Source of the DNA: Candidatus Binatia bacterium
GTDB taxonomy: Bacteria > Desulfobacterota > Binatia > Bin18
Direction: 5' to 3'
Assembly (NCBI GenBank): GCA_022824615.1
Contig: JAJDZM010000274.1
Span: 1 to 62,215 of the forward strand
DNA: 62,215 bases
The notes beneath the pieces are model-generated. The model worked only from the letters and a program-made list of their open reading frames with translations. It ran no database searches and had not been told where the DNA came from. The position numbers and the translations under genes were made by a program. How positions within the stretch are numbered: the first letter of the stretch is position 1; every line of letters starts with the position of its first letter. Shown here in pieces: positions 32,036-41,412 of the stretch.

Positions 32036-32161
32036 GTGTAATGTTCTCCTGCTTTTCTTGATTTTGGTTCCTTACTTTCTTTGGTGGCTGCACTCCCTAT
32101 CAAGCTTTTGTCAGTGACAGTCAGGGATAAAATGAGTGCTCGGAGTTCATGAGGGGAGCAA

Positions 32162-32377
32162 TTACGCCTTTGCCGTTTGGAGGACAACTCCAAGCTCATG
32201 GGCGGGGGTCTTTGACTTAAAGTATAATCGCTCGAAGCCAATAGCCTCGCCCTGAACATCCTTGATTAAAATAAGACCACGGCCTACTTCTTCGCACACT
32301 TCCTCATGTTCTGGGTCATCCCAGTACACAGTGAGGGTTTCTCCGGCTGGAGCATGAATGACTTTTATACTGACCAT
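32162..32377 (-). CDS. DUF2283-like putative antitoxin
   Basis: TLTVYWDDPEHEEVCEEVG..LILIKDVQGEAIGFERL. Confidence 0.75.
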   Translation of the reverse strand: MVSIKVIHAPAGETLTVYWDDPEHEEVCEEVGRGLILIKDVQGEAIGFERLYFKSKTPAHELGVVLQTAKA

Positions 32378-32442
32378 ATCACCTCTCCTTCTTTTACCCT
32401 ATCACATGGATAGGCAGCGATAAGAAATCCCCCGCCCTCCAC
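32365..32442 (-). pseudogene. 3' end of the cognate RelE-fold/DUF4258-like toxin (split gene)
   Basis: VEGGGFLIAAYPCDRVKEGEVIWSV*, overlapping antitoxin ATG; 5' half is at 33965-34172. Confidence 0.7.
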
Positions 32443-32548
32443 TGATTTATCTTGTCGTAAACACAAAATTCTCTGTCATCCGTACCCGGACTTCTTTTAA
32501 GTGCGTCACATACTTGGGAAATCCGCCATTATAATTACCATCCTGACG
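32440..32548 (-). repeat. Diverged copy of the 3' end of BVMO 34181-35944 (matches 34174-34282)
   Basis: 109 bp, ~14 mismatches by hand count; translates RQDGNYNGGFPKYVTHLKEVRVRMTENFVFTTR*. Confidence 0.9.
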
Positions 32549-32638
32549 ATATTGATAAGGCTGCTTAGCGGGTGTCCTGGCTCGCGATCCGTCCTGGGCG
32601 GTCGATAACGTTCCTTTACGTCTACCTTGGGCAGGGCA

Positions 32639-33187
32639 TCACGGATCAATCGGTGAGCGTGGGCAGGCCGGCTCATTGACCCGCAGATAGGCGTCAAGGA
32701 ACCCATCCATCGCTTGTGCGATCACGGAGAGGATGAAAGCTGCATTTCCAGAGTACATGCCGGTCTTGCCATAGAGGCCCCCGACCATATCATTAGTCCG
32801 AGCAGGAATAGAGAGGCCGGTGAGAGGATCGTAGAGATGCTTATAGAGAGCCATCTCAATGCTGAATGCTCCTCCTGGTCTTCTCCGTGAGTTGACAACG
32901 CTTACATGCACCATCAGCATCGGAACCTCAAGATCATTAGTATCAGTATAGAGCCATGCGGACCGCAGTCGGCTGCGCACCGCCGTAGCGACGCTCTCCT
33001 CTGTCAGGCCCGCCGTGACCGCATCTTCAGAGATAACGACGCCTAGCCTTAGTGGGCTGCACCCAGTCCAATACGTAAAGCGCATGAATTCTTCATTGGT
33101 GATAGCCTGTGATGGTGCGGCGATGGCCAGCAGGACCGACAGGGCCACCAGGACGCCCCCCACAAGCCTCAGACAGCGGTGTTCCAT
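32639..33187 (-). CDS. Secreted hypothetical protein
   Basis: Signal peptide ending SQA; TGCSPLRL..AGLTEESVATAVRSRLRSAWLY. Confidence 0.7.
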   Translation of the reverse strand: MEHRCLRLVGGVLVALSVLLAIAAPSQAITNEEFMRFTYWTGCSPLRLGVVISEDAVTAGLTEESVATAVRSRLRSAWLYTDTNDLEVPMLMVHVSVVNSRRRPGGAFSIEMALYKHLYDPLTGLSIPARTNDMVGGLYGKTGMYSGNAAFILSVIAQAMDGFLDAYLRVNEPACPRSPIDP

Positions 33188-33341
33188 CGTATGTTCTTCC
33201 TCTCACGTTTCGGTCCCTGACGGCTGTCGCGCAATCATGCGGCTGCCCGGAATCTTGCCCCTTGCTGTCCTGGGCGCCGCATGGCCTCGGGTCGAGAGTG
33301 CGAGCCGGATCGTGCAGCCAAGCAGAGATTGCATGTCAGGT

Positions 33342-33851
33342 CTACTTCCGCATAGAATTTCTCAGCCGTATCTGGTCAAACTCTCGCAGGCTCTCAGTAC
33401 CTTTTTTGGGGCCTAATATCGTCAATAATGCGTCGTCAAGCGTAGCATGAATCCTTTCTTTGGCTGGGATATAGGACTCCTCTAGCTTATAGACACTTAG
33501 CAAGTTCACCACTTTCCTTTTGTATTCGTCGGGGTGCTCACGCGCGAGATCCACCAGGGCATGGATTCCGCCGATACGCATAGAATCAAGATTGTGGCCG
33601 AGCATTTCGACAGCGCGCTGGTATCGGTCAGAGAGCAAGCCCCCTTGCGCGATTTCGGCTTGCCGCTGCGCAACCATGCTGCGCCAGACCGCTAAGCCCA
33701 TTGCCAGAGGCGCACCCCAGATCAGGACAAGGTTTCTGATGGTCGCGGCAGCGGACGGTTCTCCCTCAGAGAGGGCGTTCCAAAAGCAGAACGAAAAACC
33801 TATCGCCGCAAGGACGTAAACTGCGATGGCGACGGTGATTGTTACTCCCAT
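33342..33851 (-). CDS. Membrane protein with the domain usually N-terminal to pentapeptide repeats (repeats absent)
   Basis: Two TM helices then DRYQRAVEMLG..SMRIGGIHALVDLAREHP. Confidence 0.6.
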   Translation of the reverse strand: MGVTITVAIAVYVLAAIGFSFCFWNALSEGEPSAAATIRNLVLIWGAPLAMGLAVWRSMVAQRQAEIAQGGLLSDRYQRAVEMLGHNLDSMRIGGIHALVDLAREHPDEYKRKVVNLLSVYKLEESYIPAKERIHATLDDALLTILGPKKGTESLREFDQIRLRNSMRK

Positions 33852-33964
33852 TAGTCGATATTGGTGTTCTCCTGTCGCCGGATTTTCTCCTCGCGAGACA
33901 TGGCCGCCCGTTCAGCCTTCTGCTCCTCGGTCAGCCGCGTCCGCGCATGGCACGTTCGCGCCGC
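33852..33964 (-). repeat. Diverged internal fragment of BVMO (matches 34896-35009)
   Basis: RERAMRG..LTEEQ.AERAAMSREEKIRRQEN.NIDY at nucleotide level, one indel; abuts ATG of 33342-33851. Confidence 0.9.
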
Positions 33965-34172
33965 AAAGACAAATCCCTGCATCCTGTGGGCTGCAACAAG
34001 TCCGACCTGGAGCGGAAAGGACTTGAATAACAGCCTGCACGCGGCCTCTGAGCTTCGGATGTTTTGTCTCGATGAGCGACCAATAGTCTGCGGTTGTGCG
34101 CACAGAGAATCCCAGGGGGGTTACCACCTCAAAAAGATTTCCGCCCTGTGGATTCACCCCTACCCTCGCCAT
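33965..34172 (-). pseudogene. 5' half of RelE-fold/DUF4258-like toxin
   Basis: LFEVVTPLGFSVRTTADYWSLIETKHP..VLSAP..SPQD, family normally paired with DUF2283. Confidence 0.7.
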
Positions 34173-34180
34173 TCACTGAT

Positions 34181-35944
34181 TTATTCTTTCGTAAACACAA
34201 AATTCTCTGTCATCTGTGCCCGAATTTCTTTGAGGTACGTCACATACTTGGGAAAGCCGCCGTTATAATTGCCGTCCTGACGGCGCTGAAATTCACCCTC
34301 GAAATTATAATAGCCCGGCGTACAGTCCTGGTTGCGGGTGGTTTTGCCGCGATGATGGATCACTTCCTGAACCCACCACTCTTCCGCCTCGGGGGTCACG
34401 TCGATGGACTGATAGTCATGCCGCCGCACATAGTCGATACACGCTGCAATATGATCACCCTGGGATTGCAGCATGTCCGTCAGGTTGAACTGAAACGATG
34501 CCTGATAGCCACCCATGATAAACAGGTTGGGATAGCTCTGTGAGTGAATGCCGAGCAGGGTGCGGATGCCGGTGCTGTATTTGTCGTTCAGGTCGAGGCC
34601 GTTTTCTCCTTTGATCTGATTGTAAATCCCGGTCTTCTGCACCTCGAAGCCGGTGGCATAGATCAGGAGATCGAGCTCGTACTGTGTCCCGCCAAATACC
34701 GGTCCTTTGGCCGTGATTTCAGTGATGCCTTTGCCGTGGGTATCGACCAGGTGCACGTTAGGGCGGTTGAAGGTCGGCAGATAGTCGTTGTGAAAACAGG
34801 GCCGCTTGCACATAAACATATACCACGGCTTGAGCGCCTCCGCGGTGACCTTGTCCCTCACGACCTCGTCGATGCGTTTATGAATCTTCATCATGTAGTC
34901 GATATTGGCGTTCTCCTGTCGTCGGATTTTCTCCTCACGAGACATGGCCGCCCGCTCGGCCTGCTGCTCCTCGGTCAACCGCGGCCCGCGCATGGCGCGT
35001 TCGCGCCGCTTGGCCTGCCAACCCGGCTTCAGTTTACGTGCCCAGTTGGGATCGGTCGGCCAGTCGTCCCGGATATCAATCGACGACGGCGTGCGCTGGA
35101 ACACGTACAACTCTTTGGAGGATGCACCGAGGCCGGGAATAGCCTGCACCGCGGTCGCGCCCGTGCCGATAATGCCGACGACCTTGTCCTCCAGGCCGGA
35201 CAAGTCCTCCTTGGTGTAATCATAGTCCCAGCGCGAGGTATGAAAGGAGTGGCCTTTGAAGGACTCCATCCCCTTAATTTTGGACAGCTTGGGCTTGGAC
35301 AGCGTGCCGTTGGCGCAGATCACGAAGCGCGCTTTCATGTGGTCGCCTCGGTCCGTGGTGAGGTACCACATCTCTTCTTCTTCGTTCCATATAGTTGAGG
35401 TGACCGTGGTCTGGAAAACCGCCAGCTCGTATAAATTGTATTTTTTGGCAATGGCTTGGCAGTGGGCCAGGATTTCCGGTCCCTTGGCGTAATGGTCTTT
35501 GGGCACGTAGTCCATTTCATCAAGCAGCGGCAGGTAATCATAAGCCACCACGTCGCAGGCCACCCCGGGGTAGCGATTCCAGTACCAGGTCCCCCCGACG
35601 TCCGCTCCCCGCTCGACAATACGGATACTCTCAACGCCATACTCCCGCAGCCGGGCCGAGGTGAGCAGAGCCGAGAATCCTCCACCGATAAACAAGCACT
35701 CGACCGTATCGTTGATGGGCTCGCGGGGGAGAATCTCCCCGCCGTAGGGGTCGGTCTCGTATTTGGCGAAAGAACCGGAGAGGTCAGATGTATACTGTGC
35801 CGTACCCTCCGGGCGGTAGTGCAGCCTCAGGTCGCGTTCCTCGGCGAATTTTTGCTTAATAGCATTGTAATACGCCTGCGATTTTCCAGATTTCGAGAGC
35901 CCATTCATGCTGCCAATCAGGGGCTTCTCCTGCGCCTCACTCAT
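34181..35944 (-). CDS. Baeyer-Villiger monooxygenase
   Basis: [45 protein letters not shown]. Confidence 0.92.
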   Translation of the reverse strand: MSEAQEKPLIGSMNGLSKSGKSQAYYNAIKQKFAEERDLRLHYRPEGTAQYTSDLSGSFAKYETDPYGGEILPREPINDTVECLFIGGGFSALLTSARLREYGVESIRIVERGADVGGTWYWNRYPGVACDVVAYDYLPLLDEMDYVPKDHYAKGPEILAHCQAIAKKYNLYELAVFQTTVTSTIWNEEEEMWYLTTDRGDHMKARFVICANGTLSKPKLSKIKGMESFKGHSFHTSRWDYDYTKEDLSGLEDKVVGIIGTGATAVQAIPGLGASSKELYVFQRTPSSIDIRDDWPTDPNWARKLKPGWQAKRRERAMRGPRLTEEQQAERAAMSREEKIRRQENANIDYMMKIHKRIDEVVRDKVTAEALKPWYMFMCKRPCFHNDYLPTFNRPNVHLVDTHGKGITEITAKGPVFGGTQYELDLLIYATGFEVQKTGIYNQIKGENGLDLNDKYSTGIRTLLGIHSQSYPNLFIMGGYQASFQFNLTDMLQSQGDHIAACIDYVRRHDYQSIDVTPEAEEWWVQEVIHHRGKTTRNQDCTPGYYNFEGEFQRRQDGNYNGGFPKYVTYLKEIRAQMTENFVFTKE

Positions 35945-36043: not shown

Positions 36044-36640
36044 TTAATCCGAGTACAGGGGATGTGAACCGAACTGATTTTTTCGCACAGCCTCCCCCGT
36101 GGTGGCCACATACCCGACCCCGCGCCCGACGCTGTCGAGGTACTGGGCGATGGTGTCGCCAAACAACCGTTGCTGATAGGCCCGCTTCCGAGGGGCGGAC
36201 AAGTCCGCTTTCAGGTAGGGAATCACGGTAATGGCCAACTCGCTCTGCCGCTCGCCCTGCGCCGTGATGCGCCACTCCACACGGGCCGTCTTGCGTGAGG
36301 GCGGCCCAACTTCAATGTCAAATCCCACCCCCTCGAGCCACCTCACAAAATCGCGCTCGTAATGCACGCCACTGTAGTACGAGACCGTGTCCTTTGCCCC
36401 AACCCCGGGCCATTTGAGCACCGTGGTTGCCTGACAGAAGGGGTGATAGCGGAGGAGTTGACCGGGTTGAGAGATCACCTGCCAGACACGGTCTGCAGCG
36501 GCCTCAATCAGGTGCCGGACCTCTACCGCCTCGCCCGGCTCAAGCCCTCGGGCGGCCAATTCGGTTTGCAATTGCTCTCTGTCTGCTTTCACGCTGGGAT
36601 TCCCCGCTACAAATACTCTGAGTAACCAGCATGCATGCAA
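36044..36640 (-). CDS. SRPBCC / polyketide cyclase-like protein (start uncertain, GTG 36592 possible)
   Basis: IEAAADRVWQVISQPG.L..YHPFC..GVGAKDTV. Confidence 0.7.
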   Translation of the reverse strand: MHACWLLRVFVAGNPSVKADREQLQTELAARGLEPGEAVEVRHLIEAAADRVWQVISQPGQLLRYHPFCQATTVLKWPGVGAKDTVSYYSGVHYERDFVRWLEGVGFDIEVGPPSRKTARVEWRITAQGERQSELAITVIPYLKADLSAPRKRAYQQRLFGDTIAQYLDSVGRGVGYVATTGEAVRKNQFGSHPLYSD

Positions 36641-36648
36641 GCGTCCGG

Positions 36649-37059
36649 CTAGCTATCGAACGTCCCACCAATAGCGGCCGTGTCGTTGTATTCGCGCAGA
36701 TAGGAGAGCTTGCCATCCTCGGCGAATCGGAATTCCCAAACGAACGCCATATCGCAGGCGCGCCCCGTTGCGACCGATTGGCCGTTCTTTTCTACGCCGG
36801 GCGCCGCCATCCTGCGCGTCTCCGGGTCGAAAATAAAATCGTGGAAGACGACTTCGCCGATCACCCAGGTCTCGGCCAGTTGGGCCAGATATTTTTGTAA
36901 CCCCGCCGGACCCTCGTAGCGGTCGCCAAAAGGGATATGAGACGGCAGAAAATTCTCCCAGGCGAAATCGTCGGCCAGCAGCTTAGTGCACTCGGGTAAA
37001 TCCGTCAGGAGGAGGTTCATGAACTTGTTCACCGTGTCGATCGCCTCTTGTTTTGTCAT
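36649..37059 (-). CDS. SnoaL/NTF2-like protein
   Basis: LLADDFAW..PFGDRYEGPAG..Y...FVWEFRF.DGKLSYLREYNDTA. Confidence 0.85.
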   Translation of the reverse strand: MTKQEAIDTVNKFMNLLLTDLPECTKLLADDFAWENFLPSHIPFGDRYEGPAGLQKYLAQLAETWVIGEVVFHDFIFDPETRRMAAPGVEKNGQSVATGRACDMAFVWEFRFAEDGKLSYLREYNDTAAIGGTFDS

Positions 37060-37121: not shown

Positions 37122-37703
37122 TTACAGACTGCTCCGCATTTCTTCGGCGGGACGGTGGATCGGACACGTGGTTTCGCGGTCCGCCAAATCAAAGCAAAAA
37201 AGGAACTTCGCAAACCCGCATAGCACGGCCATCGTCACCCCGAGCTCGAATATCTCTCCGTCACTGAAATGTGCGGCCAACTCGTGATGCAGCTCCTCGG
37301 TCATATACCCGTGGAGGTTGGTGAGCGCCATCTGCTCGCACAGCCTGAGTACCGCCCGGTCACGCGGCGAAAACACCTCGTTGTCGATATCGTCCGGAAG
37401 CGCCTCAATCTGTTCCGTGGTCAGGCCGGCCCGTCTCGCCGAGACGGTGTTGACCCTGTTTCATAAGAAGCAGCCGTGAGTCTTGGAGAGTTTGAGGCGG
37501 AGCAGCTCCTTGGTGCGCACATCGACGCGGCCCTCATAGAAGACCCGCTTGTAGAAGCTGTTGAAGTACCAATCGAGCAGTTCGGGCGCGTTGGCGCCAA
37601 CCTCGATCAGCCGCGCGTCCCCGGCCTCGCGCAGACACTCGTCGTACATCACAGCCATATCGGGTGCGAGTTCCTCACGGGTGAGGCGTTTCATTGCACA
37701 CAT
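37122..37703 (-). CDS. AhpD/carboxymuconolactone decarboxylase-like selenoprotein (CxxU; TGA at 37461-37463)
   Basis: ORFs 37461-37703 and 37122-37376 are in one frame: VDVRTKELLRLKLSKTHGCFL(TGA)NRVN..FSPRDRAVLRLCEQM; SECIS-like hairpin follows. Confidence 0.85.
37431..37447 (-). promoter_or_regulatory. Putative bacterial SECIS hairpin
   Basis: CCGUCUC-GGC-GAGACGG, loop starts ~20 nt after UGA and begins with G. Confidence 0.7.
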
Positions 37704-37896
37704 AGCGTTGCTCCTTTCCTCGGCTGAAAATGTATATATGCTCCGCTATCGAGTAGAACTCAGGTAGCGAAGTTGTGAGGGGGAATCAACACGGCTTGTG
37801 GGGTTTGTATTGTCAAAATTTTGTCGATATGCCAAACTCCGCGCTAACGAAAAAATTGAGATGTGCCAACGAGGAGCCAATAAGGAGGGCTGACAG

Positions 37897-39726
37897 ATGA
37901 ATGAAGCGGCAGAGACATCCCAACCGACCGGCATTCCAACTCCCGAAGAACTGGGCTTTGACCCGGCTGACCTGCGTCAGAAGTACGCCGAGGAGCGAAC
38001 TAGGCGTTTGCGCACGGACGGCAACAATCAGTATCAGGAAATCACCGGCCAGCACGCCCACTATAATATCGATCCCTATGTCGAGCCGGGCTTCACCCGC
38101 CCCGCGCTGCAAGAAGAACTCGACGCGGTGATTATCGGTGGCGGCTTTGGTGGCCTGCTGGCGGCTGCGCGCTTGCAGAAGGAAGGGATCACCAATATCC
38201 GCATCATCGAGAAGGCCGGAGACTTCGGCGGGACCTGGTATTGGAACCGCTACCCTGGGGCCCAGTGTGACATCGAATCCTATGTCTATCTGCCCCTGCT
38301 CGAAGAGACCGGCTATATGCCCAAGGAAAAATACTCCTTTGCACCGGAAATTTTTGAGCACGCCCAGCGGATCGGCAAGCACTTTAATCTCTACGAGCGG
38401 GCCTGCTTCCAGACCCAGGTCAGGGAGGCGCGATGGAACGAAGAGGACGGGCGCTGGACGATTACCACCGACCGTGACGACGTCTTCCGGGCGCGTTTTG
38501 TGATCATGTCGAGCGGACCCTTGAACCGACCCAAGCTGCCGGCGATTCCCGGTATCGAAAAGTTCAAAGGCCATACCTTCCACACCAGCCGCTGGGACTA
38601 TGACTACACCGGCGGTGACACCACCGGCGGCATGCACAAACTCAAAGATAAACGCGTGGGCATCATTGGCACCGGGGCGACCGCGATCCAGTCCGTTCCG
38701 CACCTCGGTGAACACGCCAAACAGCTCTACGTGTTCCAGCGCACCCCGTCCTCGGTGGACGAACGTGGCAACAAACCGACCGACCCGGAATGGGTCAGGA
38801 CGCTGAAGCCCGGCTGGCAGGACTACCGCAACAACAACTTCTGCTCCATCCTGGCCGGGATTCCGGTTGAGGAAGACCTCGTCGGCGACAAGTGGACCAG
38901 CCTGTTCAAGAAACTTTCCGAACTGCTCACGGGTAAGGAAGATTCCAACCTGTCCGACGAAGGCATGGCGATCATGTCGGAGATCGCCGACTACCAGAAG
39001 ATGAATGAGATTCGCGACCGCGTGTCTTCAACCGTCACCGATCCGGAGACCGCGGAAGCGCTTAAACCCTGGTACGGCCAGTGGTGCAAGCGTCCGACCT
39101 TTAACGACGAATACCTGCCAACCTTCAACCGGCCCAACGTCAATCTGGTCGATACCAAGGGCAAAGGTGTTGAGCGCGTCACCGAAAACACGGTGAGCGT
39201 GGACGGTGTCGAGTACGAAGTGGACTGCCTGATCTACGCGACCGGCTTCGAGGTTGGGACGGCCTACACGCGGCGCGCCGAGTTCGAGGTGTACGGCCGT
39301 GACGGGCTGTCGCTGAGCGATTACTGGGCCGACGGCATGAAGACCTATCACGGCTTTTTGAGCAACGGCTTTCCGAACTGTTTCCACATGGGGCTCACCC
39401 AGACCGGCCTCGCGCCCAACTTCACCTATATGCTGAACGGGCAGGCCGTGCACATCGCCCATCTCGTTAGCCAGGTAGAAGCCCGTGACGCCAAGTCCAT
39501 CGAGCCCACCCTTGAGGCCGAGGACGAGTGGGTGAAGCTGGTAACCAGCCCGACCTTTATGACCGAGTACCAGAACACCTGTACGCCGGGCTATTACAAC
39601 GGCGAGGGGAAGAACGAAGGGCATGGCTTCATCGAGACCCAGTATCCCGACGGCGCAGTGCCCTTCTACGATATGCTCGCCGCCTGGCGCGCGCAGGGCG
39701 ATTTCGAGGGGCTGATCGTTCGCTAA
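37897..39726 (+). CDS. Baeyer-Villiger monooxygenase (long type)
   Basis: [45 protein letters not shown]. Confidence 0.93.
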
Positions 39727-39996
39727 AGCGGTTTACGATAAATTGTAGCCGTGCCAGTCCGCGTTCGTCGGGAAGGATACGGGCCGGCCCTAAGCGGTCG
39801 GGGAGGGGAGCCCGCACTCCTCAAGGACGGGTGCTGCCCATTGTGTCGATCGCTCCCTACGGGCCGTCCGCTCGCGCCCTCACCCGGCCCTGCGGGCTGG
39901 GGGAGGGCGAAACCGCCAAACAGGTTCATTTGCATCACACGTCAAGGAGGAGAGAGACGCGTTACACGGCATCGTAATTTGCACCAAACCGTTCTA
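39723..39996. mobile_element. MITE-like element between convergent genes; both ends overlap stop codons
   Basis: Left CTAAAGCGGTTTACGATAAATTGTAGCC; right end reverse complement TAGAACGGTTTGGTGCAAATTACGATGCCGTGTAAC shares GCAAATTACGAT..GTGTA with 1854. Confidence 0.6.
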
Positions 39997-41412
39997 CGCC
40001 TTGGCGGCGAGCCAGGCTTCGGTCTCGGCCAGCGCGTCCTTCAGACGCTGGAGGAGCAGACCGACCTCCTGCTGGGTAATGATCAGCGGCGGCGCCATAA
40101 AAATGACATCAGGTCCTATTTCTCGCACCAGCAGCCCGCGCTTCAGGGCCGCCCGACGGACGTAGTCCGCGACATTGTACTCGGGCGGAAACGGCTCGCG
40201 CGTGTCCTTATCCTGGACGAACTCCAGGGCCGCGATCAAGCCCAGACCCCGCACGTCGCCGACGATGGGCGCGGCGCGCAACTCGGCCAGCCCTTCCTGA
40301 AAAAGCGCCCCCATCCGGGCCGCATGGTCGACGAGCTGGTCCCGCTCCATAATTTCGAGCGTCTTCAGCCCGGCTGCGCAGCACACCGGATGGCCGGAGT
40401 TGGTATAGCCATGGGAGAAACCCGTGCCTTCGGGAGCCTGCAGAAAGGTGTCGTAAATCTTCTCGTGCAAGAGTACCGCGCCGAGTGGCAGATAGCCGCT
40501 GTTGATGCCCTTGGCCGTGCTGATCATATCCGGGGTGACGCCCCAGTGCTCGATGGCAAACATCTTGCCCGTCCGGCCAAAACCGGTAATGACTTCGTCG
40601 GACACCATGAGTACATCATACTTGTCGCAGATGGCCCGGATACGCTGAAAGTATTCCGGGGGAAGGGGGATGCCGCCCCCGCCTCCCAAAACGGGTTCGG
40701 CAATAAAAAAGGCCACGGTTTCCGGCCCTTCTTCGAGAATGACCTTTTCCAGCATATCCGCACACGCCAAGGTACAGGCCGGCTGCGTCCCGCACTGCTC
40801 ACACCGATAGCGGTACGGGGTGGGAATATGCCGCACCTTTGACAGCAGGGGCCCAAAGTATTCGTGCATATGCGGCAGCCCCGTCAGGCTGGCGGCTCCG
40901 TACGTTGCTCCGTGATAGCTGCGGTCCAGCGCAATCGCCGTGGTCTTCTTCTCCAGGCCGCGCAGCCGAAAATAGAGCCGACTGACCTTGATAACCGTTT
41001 CGTTGGCTTCCGAGCCACCCGAGACAAAAATCGCTCGGTTCAGCCCGTCCGGGGCATGCTGGGTCAACTTTGCCGCCAATTCAATGGAGGGCGGGGTGGA
41101 GAAATTCCAGCCGCTTAAATGAAACGGGAGGGTCTTCATTTGCGCGTGAACCGCGTCAGCGATCTCCGTCTGGTCGTAGCCCAAGCCCACATTGCCGATG
41201 CCGGAGCAGCCATCGAGATACTGATTGCCCTCGGCATCCCAGAGATAGACCCCTTTCCCCGCAACAATAACGGTGAAATCTCCGTCGGAATGATCCTGAA
41301 AGGTCGTAAAGACCGGAAGCTTATGCTGGCGTTCCAGGTCTCGTAACTTCTCAACGTCCAACTCAAAGGGGCGCGGGGCGGGCGGCTGCGCGTATGCCTG
41401 CTGCTGACTCAT
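39994..41412 (-). CDS. Class III PLP aminotransferase
   Basis: YLDGCSG, SGGSEANE, SYHG, FIAEPVLG, DEVITGFGRTG, TAKGINSGYLP. Confidence 0.93.
   Translation of the reverse strand: MSQQQAYAQPPAPRPFELDVEKLRDLERQHKLPVFTTFQDHSDGDFTVIVAGKGVYLWDAEGNQYLDGCSGIGNVGLGYDQTEIADAVHAQMKTLPFHLSGWNFSTPPSIELAAKLTQHAPDGLNRAIFVSGGSEANETVIKVSRLYFRLRGLEKKTTAIALDRSYHGATYGAASLTGLPHMHEYFGPLLSKVRHIPTPYRYRCEQCGTQPACTLACADMLEKVILEEGPETVAFFIAEPVLGGGGGIPLPPEYFQRIRAICDKYDVLMVSDEVITGFGRTGKMFAIEHWGVTPDMISTAKGINSGYLPLGAVLLHEKIYDTFLQAPEGTGFSHGYTNSGHPVCCAAGLKTLEIMERDQLVDHAARMGALFQEGLAELRAAPIVGDVRGLGLIAALEFVQDKDTREPFPPEYNVADYVRRAALKRGLLVREIGPDVIFMAPPLIITQQEVGLLLQRLKDALAETEAWLAAKA

What the first reader, a model, noticed from the sequence alone, without database searches (positions are those of the whole stretch)
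37122..37703. Hidden selenoprotein: AhpD/CMD-like protein with CxxU inside a catabolic operon
Seen: two ORF-track fragments are one frame interrupted by a single TGA exactly at the second Cys position of the family CxxC motif (HGC-F-L-UGA), followed by a G-loop hairpin CCGUCUC-GGC-GAGACGG at SECIS-compatible distance. Knowledge: AhpD-like CxxU selenoproteins exist and need SelA/B/C/D. Inference: a Sec redox enzyme co-transcribed with SnoaL, SRPBCC and BVMO genes, an unusual context. Standard annotation would call it two fragments or a pseudogene.
Basis: partly seen in the sequence, partly recalled or inferred. Interest (0 to 1): 0.7.

Follow-up and report, generated by a model that had tools for sequence, protein, structure and literature searches.

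The report
AhpD/CMD-like selenoprotein gene in Binatia
The two "half genes" are one intact gene for a small redox enzyme whose internal TGA almost certainly encodes selenocysteine; the reading is solid, but selenoproteins of this kind have been known since 2005, so the case is ordinary.

Summary
Window 37122-37703 (- strand) is one 193-codon CMD/AhpD-like frame. It has a single in-frame TGA at codon 81 (37461-37463), in the motif T-H-G-C-F-L-U-N.

In 41 full-length homologues this column is the invariant second Cys of HGCxxCN. The TGA is kept in every orthologue examined from the same genus (Candidatus Binatia). It is also kept in ~70%-identical homologues from Myxococcota and Actinomycetota.

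dN/dS is the same before (0.115) and after (0.119) the TGA. A 7-bp hairpin with a GGC loop starts 13 nt after the UGA. It is 98% paired in 15 sequences, with three compensatory pair changes. By chance, only 0.4% of positions have such a hairpin.

The genome carries selA, selB, a selD fusion and tRNA-Sec, and TGA is its commonest ordinary stop. This context is conserved in the genus, although the cluster also occurs without this gene.

CxxU AhpD-like/CMD selenoproteins are a long-described family, so this is a new member of a known kind. The exact substrate is unknown.

The parts
37122..37703 (-). CMD/AhpD-like selenoprotein gene: 193 codons plus TAA stop. Starts with ATG at 37703-37701.
   Evidence: Translation. 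Pfam CMD hit across the TGA. Orthologues 89-96% identical and of the same length in 11 congeneric genomes. AF2 model with mean pLDDT 91.2, all-helical CMD fold.
37461..37463 (-). In-frame UGA, codon 81, read as selenocysteine. It is the second position of the C78-x-x-U81 redox motif.
   Evidence: Aligns with the invariant second Cys of HGCxxCN in 41 Cys homologues. TGA is kept in all orthologues and in cross-phylum homologues. dN/dS downstream is 0.119 against 0.115 upstream.
37431..37447 (-). Apical bSECIS-like hairpin: 7-bp stem CCGUCUC/GAGACGG with a GGC loop. It starts 13 nt after the UGA.
   Evidence: 98.1% of cells are paired in 15 sequences. Three of the 7 pairs show compensatory double changes (C-G/U-A, U-A/C-G, U-A/G-C). 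Slid controls give 30-45% paired. The chance rate of such a hairpin is 0.4%.
37419..37455 (-). Possible lower helix GGUCA/UGACC that encloses the apical hairpin (extended SECIS).
   Evidence: 90.7% paired, with one pair changed on both sides. Support is weaker.
37711..37720 (-). Shine-Dalgarno-like AGGAAAGGAG, 7 nt upstream of the ATG.
   Evidence: Read directly from the sequence.
36649..37059 (-). SnoaL_2 (NTF2-like) gene, 62 nt downstream of the selenoprotein gene.
   Evidence: Pfam PF12680, 29 bits. It is adjacent in all 11 congeneric orthologous loci, and a 74%-identical copy sits next to the Sec gene in a Myxococcota genome.
36044..36640 (-). SRPBCC / polyketide-cyclase-like gene.
   Evidence: Pfam Polyketide_cyc2 and Polyketide_cyc, weak. 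Conserved in position in the genus.
34181..35944 (-). Flavin monooxygenase A, a PtlE-like Baeyer-Villiger monooxygenase. It is the last gene of the same-strand cluster.
   Evidence: Pfam Pyr_redox_3 and FMO-like. NCBIfam PtlE model E 1.5e-163, below the equivalog cut-off.
37897..39726 (+). Flavin monooxygenase B (PtlE-like BVMO), divergently transcribed from the selenoprotein gene.
   Evidence: Pfam. NCBIfam PtlE model, 750.9 bits against a cut-off of 1100. Conserved in the genus.

Best explanation
Window 37122-37703 (- strand) is one functional gene of a Candidatus Binatia bacterium. It encodes a 193-residue CMD/AhpD-fold protein whose codon 81 (UGA) is decoded as selenocysteine. SelB with Sec-tRNA(Sec) is recruited by the hairpin that begins 13 nt after the UGA (a bacterial SECIS), so the ribosome inserts Sec instead of terminating. 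The product carries a C78-x-x-U81 redox centre. This centre sits among the family's invariant residues E66, H76, G77 and N82, with a third invariant Cys at position 180.

Inferred, not shown: the selenol at the second position is the attacking nucleophile, as the second Cys is in mycobacterial AhpD (from memory). It would form a selenenylsulfide with C78 that a cellular thiol system then reduces. The enzyme would thus act as a selenol/thiol oxidoreductase on a peroxide or another small electrophile.

In this genus the gene is the first of a probable operon with a SnoaL-like protein, an SRPBCC protein and a PtlE-like Baeyer-Villiger monooxygenase, and a second such monooxygenase is transcribed divergently. 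A plausible role is removal of peroxides formed by these oxygenases, or a reductive step on their substrate. The gene is an accessory member of the cluster, because the cluster also exists without it.
For: Shown here:
- A single frame with one TGA, and the CMD domain spans it.
- The TGA column is an invariant Cys in 41 homologues.
- The TGA is kept in 11 congeneric orthologues, in further Binatia loci (L033, a second copy in G026; L040; L043) and in 6 homologues of about 70% identity from Myxococcota, Actinomycetes, Gaiellaceae and Thermoleophilia.
- Purifying selection is equal on both sides of the TGA (dN/dS 0.115 and 0.119, 55 pairs).
- The hairpin is 98% paired, with three compensatory pairs. 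Two of these couple an amino-acid change on one arm to a synonymous change on the other: UCG->GCG (Ser to Ala) with AGA->CGA, and GUC->GCC (Val to Ala) with AGA->AGG. In the third, CGG->CAG (Arg to Gln) is paired with synonymous ACC->ACU.
- Only 0.4% of positions have such a hairpin by chance.
- selB scores 388 bits, selA 597 bits and selD 309 bits, all over their cut-offs, and tRNA-Sec lies beside selA.
- selA is in 26 of 28 genomes of the genus, including single-contig chromosomes that also carry the TGA gene. It is also in 4 of the 6 other-phylum genomes.
- TGA is the commonest stop of long frames (799 of 2080), so there is no genome-wide recoding.
- Four paralogues in the same genome have TGA at the same CxxU column, each with a GG[CU]-loop hairpin at the same distance.
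- The fold is CMD/AhpD-like (pLDDT 91.2; Foldseek TM 0.6-0.7 to Bmp8, mlr4105, PA0269 and D. radiodurans AhpD).
- The context is shown.
Against: - There is no direct evidence of selenium in the protein or of expression.
- Rfam has no match for the hairpin.
- The minimum-free-energy z-score of the whole 81-nt stretch is unremarkable (-0.55).
- Two orthologues carry a C.A mismatch at one stem pair.
- The peroxidase or reductase function is inferred only from family membership. The His at +4 of the AhpD motif is Asn here, no ahpC-like gene is adjacent, and five congeneric genomes keep the SnoaL/BVMO cluster without this gene. The link to the cluster's chemistry is therefore loose.
Confidence: 0.92

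Rival explanations
1. The gene is a pseudogene, or two independent short ORFs. The TGA would be a true stop from a nonsense mutation, and the downstream half would not be translated.
For: Standard ORF calling splits the frame into 80 aa and 84 aa pieces. A decayed copy does exist in another genus: L022 lacks its N-terminal half and has an extra TAG. One congeneric genome has deleted the gene down to a 31-codon remnant.
Against: The TGA is kept at the same column across three phyla. dN/dS after it is 0.119, the same as before it. A single Pfam domain spans it. The invariant residues of the C-terminal half (for example C180 and K166) are all kept.
Confidence: 0.02
2. The UGA is read through or recoded as a standard amino acid (Trp, Gly or Cys), or termination at UGA predominates. 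Sec insertion would then be minor or conditional on selenium supply.
For: No experiment shows Sec here. In known bacteria, Sec insertion competes with RF2 (from memory). The hairpin matches no Rfam SECIS model.
Against: TGA is the most used stop of long frames in this genome. Homologues have Cys, the Sec-equivalent residue, never Trp or Gly. The complete Sec machinery is present. The covarying hairpin has the position and G-containing small loop described for bacterial SECIS elements (PMC1088965).
Confidence: 0.04
3. The TGA is a sequencing or assembly error in a metagenome-assembled genome, in place of TGC/TGT.
For: The genome is a 308-contig MAG with 4.6% estimated contamination.
Against: The same TGA is present in 11 or more independently assembled genomes, including closed long-read chromosomes.
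Confidence: 0.005

Closest known systems
CMD domain-containing / 'AhpD-like 2' selenoproteins (Pfam PF02627, CxxU) and 'AhpD-like 1' (COG2128/TIGR01926, CxxU). Sources: Zhang, Fomenko and Gladyshev 2005 (PMC1088965); Zhang and Gladyshev 2008 (PMC2398784); 2026 review (PMC13188914).
   Same: Same Pfam domain. Same CxxU motif with Sec at the second position. Cys homologues are widespread. A bacterial SECIS with a small G-containing apical loop lies directly after the UGA. 'AhpD-like 2' is reported as more abundant in non-marine samples, which fits a soil or groundwater lineage.
   Different: This roughly 190-residue subfamily (HGCxxUN, Asn instead of His at +4, third invariant Cys near the C-terminus) reaches no curated NCBIfam selenoprotein model. 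NF053654 scores 41.6 bits against a cut-off of 310, and TIGR01926 scores 29.7 against 81.8. The host lineage (Binatia) and the BVMO/SnoaL/SRPBCC context do not appear in the papers I read.
Mycobacterium tuberculosis AhpD (alkylhydroperoxidase D), and PA0269 of Pseudomonas aeruginosa (PDB 2ijc, 2o4d, 7xw1).
   Same: CMD fold. PA0269 is the best sequence match among solved structures (profile E 1.4e-16; TM 0.8 on the target). The E-x11-C-x-x-C spacing is kept (E66...C78..U81). From memory, the second Cys is the nucleophile in AhpD, which matches the Sec position.
   Different: His at +4 after the second Cys (CxxCxxxH; visible in the PA0269 alignment as CAYCVNMH) is Asn85 here. No AhpC-type peroxiredoxin gene is adjacent. 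This protein uses Sec instead of Cys.
Bmp8 tetrabromopyrrole debrominase (PDB 6ohi, 6ohj).
   Same: Best Foldseek match (E 1.1e-05, TM 0.69-0.71). The profile match has E 3.7e-06. The C82A mutant chain scores 5.5 bits less, as expected if C82 lies in one of the invariant Cys columns. It is a CMD-fold enzyme that acts reductively on a small-molecule substrate inside a pathway gene cluster.
   Different: Only 17-19% identity. No bmp-type halogenase context. Other 180-residue 'peroxidase-related' structures match almost equally well, so the fold search does not discriminate between functions.

Membership tests
Bacterial selenoprotein gene (UGA decoded as Sec) | The in-frame UGA aligns with Cys in homologues (a conserved Sec/Cys pair). 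| tested here: met
   The column is an invariant Cys (C81) in 41 homologues, within HGCxxCN.
Bacterial selenoprotein gene (UGA decoded as Sec) | The UGA is conserved in at least two different sequences, and the coding constraint continues downstream. | tested here: met
   The TGA is kept in 11 congeneric orthologues, further Binatia loci (L033, L040, L043) and 6 cross-phylum homologues. dN/dS is 0.119 downstream and 0.115 upstream.
Bacterial selenoprotein gene (UGA decoded as Sec) | A SECIS stem-loop lies immediately downstream of the UGA, with a small apical loop that contains G. | tested here: met
   A 7-bp stem with a GGC loop (GUC in one homologue) starts 13 nt after the UGA. It has 3 compensatory pairs and is 98% paired. 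The chance rate is 0.4%. There is no Rfam family match. bSECISearch itself was not available.
Bacterial selenoprotein gene (UGA decoded as Sec) | The Sec machinery (selA, selB, selC, selD) is present in the genome. | tested here: met
   selB 388.5 bits, selA 596.6 bits and selD 309 bits, all over their cut-offs. tRNA-Sec (anticodon tca) lies next to selA. selA is in 26 of 28 genomes of the genus.
Bacterial selenoprotein gene (UGA decoded as Sec) | Selenium is physically present in the polypeptide. | not testable with these tools
   Needs 75Se labelling or mass spectrometry.
CMD / AhpD-like superfamily (Pfam PF02627) | The domain model is matched above the gathering score, and the fold is all-helical CMD. 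| tested here: met
   45.7 bits against a cut-off of 23. The AF2 model has pLDDT 91.2 and its Foldseek hits are all CMD/AhpD-fold proteins.
AhpD sensu stricto (AhpC-reducing alkylhydroperoxidase D) | The E-x11-CxxC-x3-H motif, including the proton-relay His. | tested here: not met
   The Glu spacing is kept (E66 to C78), but position +4 is Asn85, which is nearly invariant in the family. An invariant His sits at -2 of the first Cys instead.
AhpD sensu stricto (AhpC-reducing alkylhydroperoxidase D) | Genomic association with ahpC. | tested here: not met
   The neighbours are SnoaL_2, SRPBCC, two flavin monooxygenases, an enoyl-CoA hydratase, an aminotransferase and an SDR. No peroxiredoxin is among them.
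NCBIfam YciW-related (seleno)protein NF053654 / TIGR01926 peroxidase-related enzyme | A score over the curated cut-off. | tested here: not met
   41.6 bits against 310, and 29.7 bits against 81.8.
gamma-Carboxymuconolactone decarboxylase (PcaC) | Specific similarity to characterised decarboxylases. | tested here: not met
   The profile against PDB 2af7 gives E 0.92, which is not significant. The invariant CxxC/U motif points to redox chemistry (inference).
Bmp8-like reductive dehalogenase | The fold, plus the catalytic Cys pair in equivalent positions and a halogenated-substrate pathway context. | tested here: inconclusive
   Fold and profile similarity are present. Residue-level equivalence was only inferred from the lower score of the C82A chain. 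No halogenase context was seen.

The most novel reading that the evidence does not exclude
The Sec forms from Binatia, Myxococcota and Actinomycetota form one well-supported clade (100/96). In every member found here it is Sec-only, and it appears to have moved between phyla together with its in-gene SECIS. This clade may not be an AhpC-type peroxidase partner at all. It may be a substrate-directed selenol reductase, with Bmp8- or deiodinase-like chemistry, recruited into small-molecule pathways: BVMO/SnoaL/SRPBCC clusters in Binatia, and hydrolase/amidase clusters in Actinomycetota. Sec would provide the nucleophile for a reductive step on a pathway intermediate or on an organic peroxide.
Probability: 0.12. 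Interest if true: 0.55.

Novelty: new member of a known kind. Interest (0 to 1): 0.25.

Why it matters
The practical value is annotation. Automatic gene calling would split this gene, its orthologues and at least four paralogues per genome in two, or call them pseudogenes. No curated NCBIfam model captures this subfamily. As a result, the selenoproteome of Binatia, a widespread uncultured soil and groundwater lineage, is under-counted. Biologically, the finding adds a lineage and a gene-cluster context to a known selenoprotein family. It does not change how Sec decoding or AhpD-like proteins are understood. Its placement next to Baeyer-Villiger monooxygenases offers a testable hint about what these functionally uncharacterised CxxU proteins do.

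Tried and rejected
- Rfam scan of 37300-37560 at E up to 10 found no family, including the SECIS models.
- Folding the whole 81-nt stretch gave an unremarkable z-score of -0.55. I therefore relied on covariation and a dedicated chance estimate instead.
- NCBIfam selenoprotein models (YciW-related, GSU3128, ArsM/AhpD, MduS) gave only sub-threshold domain-level hits.
- I looked for a conserved partner gene among Cys homologues (P0012, P0002 loci) and among cross-phylum Sec homologues. No universal partner emerged. Only the SnoaL-like neighbour recurs, in Binatia and in one Myxococcota genome.
- A literature search for Bmp8 found nothing in the held library, so what I say about its mechanism is from memory.
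- A literature search for Binatia together with selenocysteine found no relevant paper.
- Searching earlier scan notes by sequence returned nothing.
- Rejected readings: pseudogene, assembly error and genome-wide TGA recoding.

Full report
**Observation.** On the - strand, the frame from ATG 37703 to TAA 37122 is open for 193 codons except for one TGA at codon 81 (37463-37461). The local sequence is K-T-H-G-C-F-L-TGA-N-R-V-N-T-V-S-A-R-R. ORF calling with the standard code gives two pieces, 37461-37703 (80 aa) and 37122-37376 (84 aa). A Shine-Dalgarno-like AGGAAAGGAG lies 7 nt before the ATG. The Pfam CMD domain (PF02627, 45.7 bits, cut-off 23) covers residues 43-121, so one domain runs through the TGA. 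The hairpin CCGUCUC-GGC-GAGACGG is at 37447-37431 and starts 13 nt after the UGA.

**The TGA column.** A search of the large protein collection returned 102 homologues, mostly full-length proteins of 185-200 residues and 45-61% identical. In alignments of 17 and of 41 of them, the TGA aligns with the second Cys of an invariant H-G-C-x-x-C-N motif. Other invariant positions are E66, R69, K166 and a C-terminal C180. No homologue has Trp, Gly or any residue other than Cys there.

**Conservation of the TGA.**
- A six-frame search of 60 related genomes found orthologues (89-96% identity, same length) in 11 genomes of the same genus, each with exactly one TGA. Once oriented and translated, all carry HGCFL-TGA-N.
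- Titles of public records identify the organisms as Candidatus Binatia (Binatota) MAGs.
- The same scan found homologues of 68-73% identity in Myxococcota (2), Actinomycetes (2), Gaiellaceae and Thermoleophilia. All have TGA at the same column.
- In a maximum-likelihood tree these Sec forms make one clade (support 100/96), sister to a Cys clade. A further, divergent Sec form from another Binatia genus (L023) sits elsewhere, so at least two Cys/Sec switches occurred in the family.

**Coding constraint.** Over 55 pairs of congeneric orthologues, Nei-Gojobori dN/dS is 0.115 for codons 1-80 and 0.119 for codons 82-193. The part after the TGA is therefore under the same purifying selection as the part before it. 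This excludes a pseudogene or an untranslated tail.

**The hairpin.**
- In 15 distinct sequences from three phyla, the 7-bp apical stem is paired in 98.1% of cells.
- Three of the seven pairs show compensatory double changes: C-G/U-A in 6 sequences, U-A/C-G in one and U-A/G-C in one. Sliding the 3' partner by 1-3 columns drops pairing to 30-45%.
- In each compensatory pair an amino-acid change on one arm (Arg to Gln, Ser to Ala, Val to Ala) is matched by a synonymous change on the other. This argues for selection on RNA pairing rather than on the peptide alone.
- Two orthologues carry a C.A intermediate.
- The loop is GGC, or GUC in one actinomycete. The G is the feature named for bacterial SECIS elements (PMC1088965).
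- A possible lower helix GGUCA/UGACC is less well supported (90.7% paired).
- Such a hairpin follows 0.40% of random positions and 0.40% of all TGA triplets in this genome.
- Rfam has no match, and the whole-stretch folding z-score is unremarkable.

**Sec machinery and genetic code.**
- The genome (4.98 Mb, 308 contigs, about 90% complete) has selB (388.5 bits), selA (596.6 bits) and selD (309 bits), all above the curated cut-offs.
- A tRNA-Sec (anticodon tca) lies next to selA.
- SelD is fused to an N-terminal pyridine-nucleotide-disulfide oxidoreductase domain. This architecture is reported as the Ndh-SelD fusion in PMC2398784.
- selA is in 26 of 28 genomes of the genus, including single-contig chromosomes that also hold the TGA gene, so the machinery is not bin contamination.
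- selA is also in 4 of the 6 other-phylum genomes. The two without it are small MAGs.
- TGA closes 799 of 2080 long frames in the genome and is the commonest stop, so there is no general reassignment.

**Paralogues.** The same genome has at least four more CMD-type genes (about 30% identity), each with one TGA at the same CxxU column: NECQLU, NDCNLU, NDCALU and NGCLFU. Each has a hairpin with a GG[CU] loop at the same distance. The genus as a whole carries several such genes per genome.

**Fold and nearest structures.** AlphaFold2 with a 42-sequence alignment gives a confident all-helical model (mean pLDDT 91.2, pTM 0.86). The Foldseek matches are all CMD/AhpD-fold proteins:
- Bmp8 debrominase, the best match (TM 0.69-0.71);
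- mlr4105;
- PA0269;
- D. radiodurans AhpD;
- several 'peroxidase-related' structural-genomics entries.

By sequence profile the nearest solved protein is PA0269 (E 1.4e-16), and Bmp8 is also reached (3.7e-06). True gamma-carboxymuconolactone decarboxylase is not significantly matched (E 0.92).

**Mechanism.** The evidence above shows a translated gene with a Sec-decoded UGA. The rest is inferred. The E-x11-C-x-x-U spacing equals that of AhpD, where (from memory) the second Cys is the nucleophile. Sec at that position fits the general rule that Sec replaces the catalytic redox Cys. The His at +4 of the AhpD motif is Asn here, and no ahpC is nearby. The protein is therefore not an AhpD in the strict sense. 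It is more safely called a CxxU selenol/thiol oxidoreductase of the CMD fold.

**Context.**
- Downstream on the same strand lie a SnoaL_2 gene (62 nt gap), an SRPBCC gene (8 nt gap) and a flavin monooxygenase (99 nt gap). No terminator-like site falls in the gaps.
- A second monooxygenase is transcribed divergently.
- Both monooxygenases resemble the Baeyer-Villiger enzyme PtlE (E 1e-163 and 1e-226, below the equivalog cut-off).
- The arrangement is conserved in all congeneric loci with the gene.
- The SnoaL orthologue occurs in 16 of 28 genomes. Five of these lack the selenoprotein gene, and one retains only its last 31 codons. The gene is therefore an accessory member of the cluster.
- In a Myxococcota genome a 74%-identical SnoaL gene is again adjacent. 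In Actinomycetota the neighbours are a double alpha/beta-hydrolase and an amidase.
- Cys homologues sit among SDRs, aminotransferases, amidohydrolases and CoA ligases.
- A role in removing peroxides produced by the oxygenases, or in a reductive step on a pathway intermediate, is plausible but untested.

**Comparison with what is known.** CxxU selenoproteins of the AhpD-like (COG2128) and CMD-domain (PF02627) types were described from the Sargasso Sea in 2005 (PMC1088965). They were among the most abundant selenoprotein families in the GOS data (PMC2398784). They are listed in a 2026 review (PMC13188914) and in BSepDB (PMC13326102). The present gene passes the criteria used in those surveys: a conserved TGA/Cys pair, at least two Cys homologues, at least two different TGA sequences and a SECIS-like hairpin. 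It is a new member of a known kind. The features I did not find in the papers read are the host lineage, the subfamily's lack of a curated model and the oxygenase-cluster context.

**Earlier notes of this scan.** Earlier notes describe the same kind of gene in other Binatia genomes and reach the same verdict. I read them after my own tests, and they are not independent evidence.

**Verdict.** Confidence that the UGA encodes Sec is about 0.92. Interest is low to moderate.

Noticed in passing
G000 contigs C268:151-693(+), C261:766-1302(-), C21:10877-11395(+), C156:2380-2916(-): Four further CMD/AhpD-like genes in the same genome, about 30% identical to this one. Each has one TGA at the CxxU column and a GG[CU]-loop hairpin about 15-20 nt downstream. 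The genus carries several such genes per genome.
   Followed up: partly
L008:262-2529 (+) = G000 C190: SelD is the C-terminal part of a 755-residue fusion with an N-terminal pyridine-nucleotide-disulfide oxidoreductase domain (the Ndh-SelD fusion type). It is the Cys form (CGGCGSK), not Sec.
   Followed up: partly
L007:2873-2967 (-) = G000 C202: The tRNA-Sec gene (anticodon tca) lies about 40 nt downstream of selA, on the opposite strand.
   Followed up: no
L050:6001-6093 (a Candidatus Binatia chromosome, G001): The orthologous cluster is intact, but only the last 31 codons of the selenoprotein gene remain. This looks like a recent deletion of an accessory gene.
   Followed up: partly
L022 (G035, another genus of the same family): A decayed copy of the gene. 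The N-terminal half is missing, there is an extra in-frame TAG, and the C-terminal Cys is replaced. The TGA and the hairpin region are still recognisable.
   Followed up: partly
window 32036-34180: About 2.1 kb lies between monooxygenase A and the enoyl-CoA hydratase gene, whereas congeneric genomes have about 30-700 nt there. The stretch holds ORFs 33342-33851(-) and 32639-33187(-), which have no Pfam or NCBIfam match. It may be an insertion.
   Followed up: partly
window 34181-35944 (-) and 37897-39726 (+): Two paralogous PtlE-like Baeyer-Villiger monooxygenases, about 46-47% identical to each other, flank the cluster. Both are conserved across the genus.
   Followed up: partly
window 39751-40842 (+): A 363-codon ORF with no family match. 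It is largely overlapped on the opposite strand by a class-III aminotransferase gene (39994-41412, 329 bits). It is probably a spurious shadow ORF.
   Followed up: no
P0100 (ENA gene call, 128 aa): A public gene call that is 90% identical over the N-terminal ~60 residues and then diverges completely. It is probably a frameshifted or chimeric short contig of a related Binatia gene.
   Followed up: no
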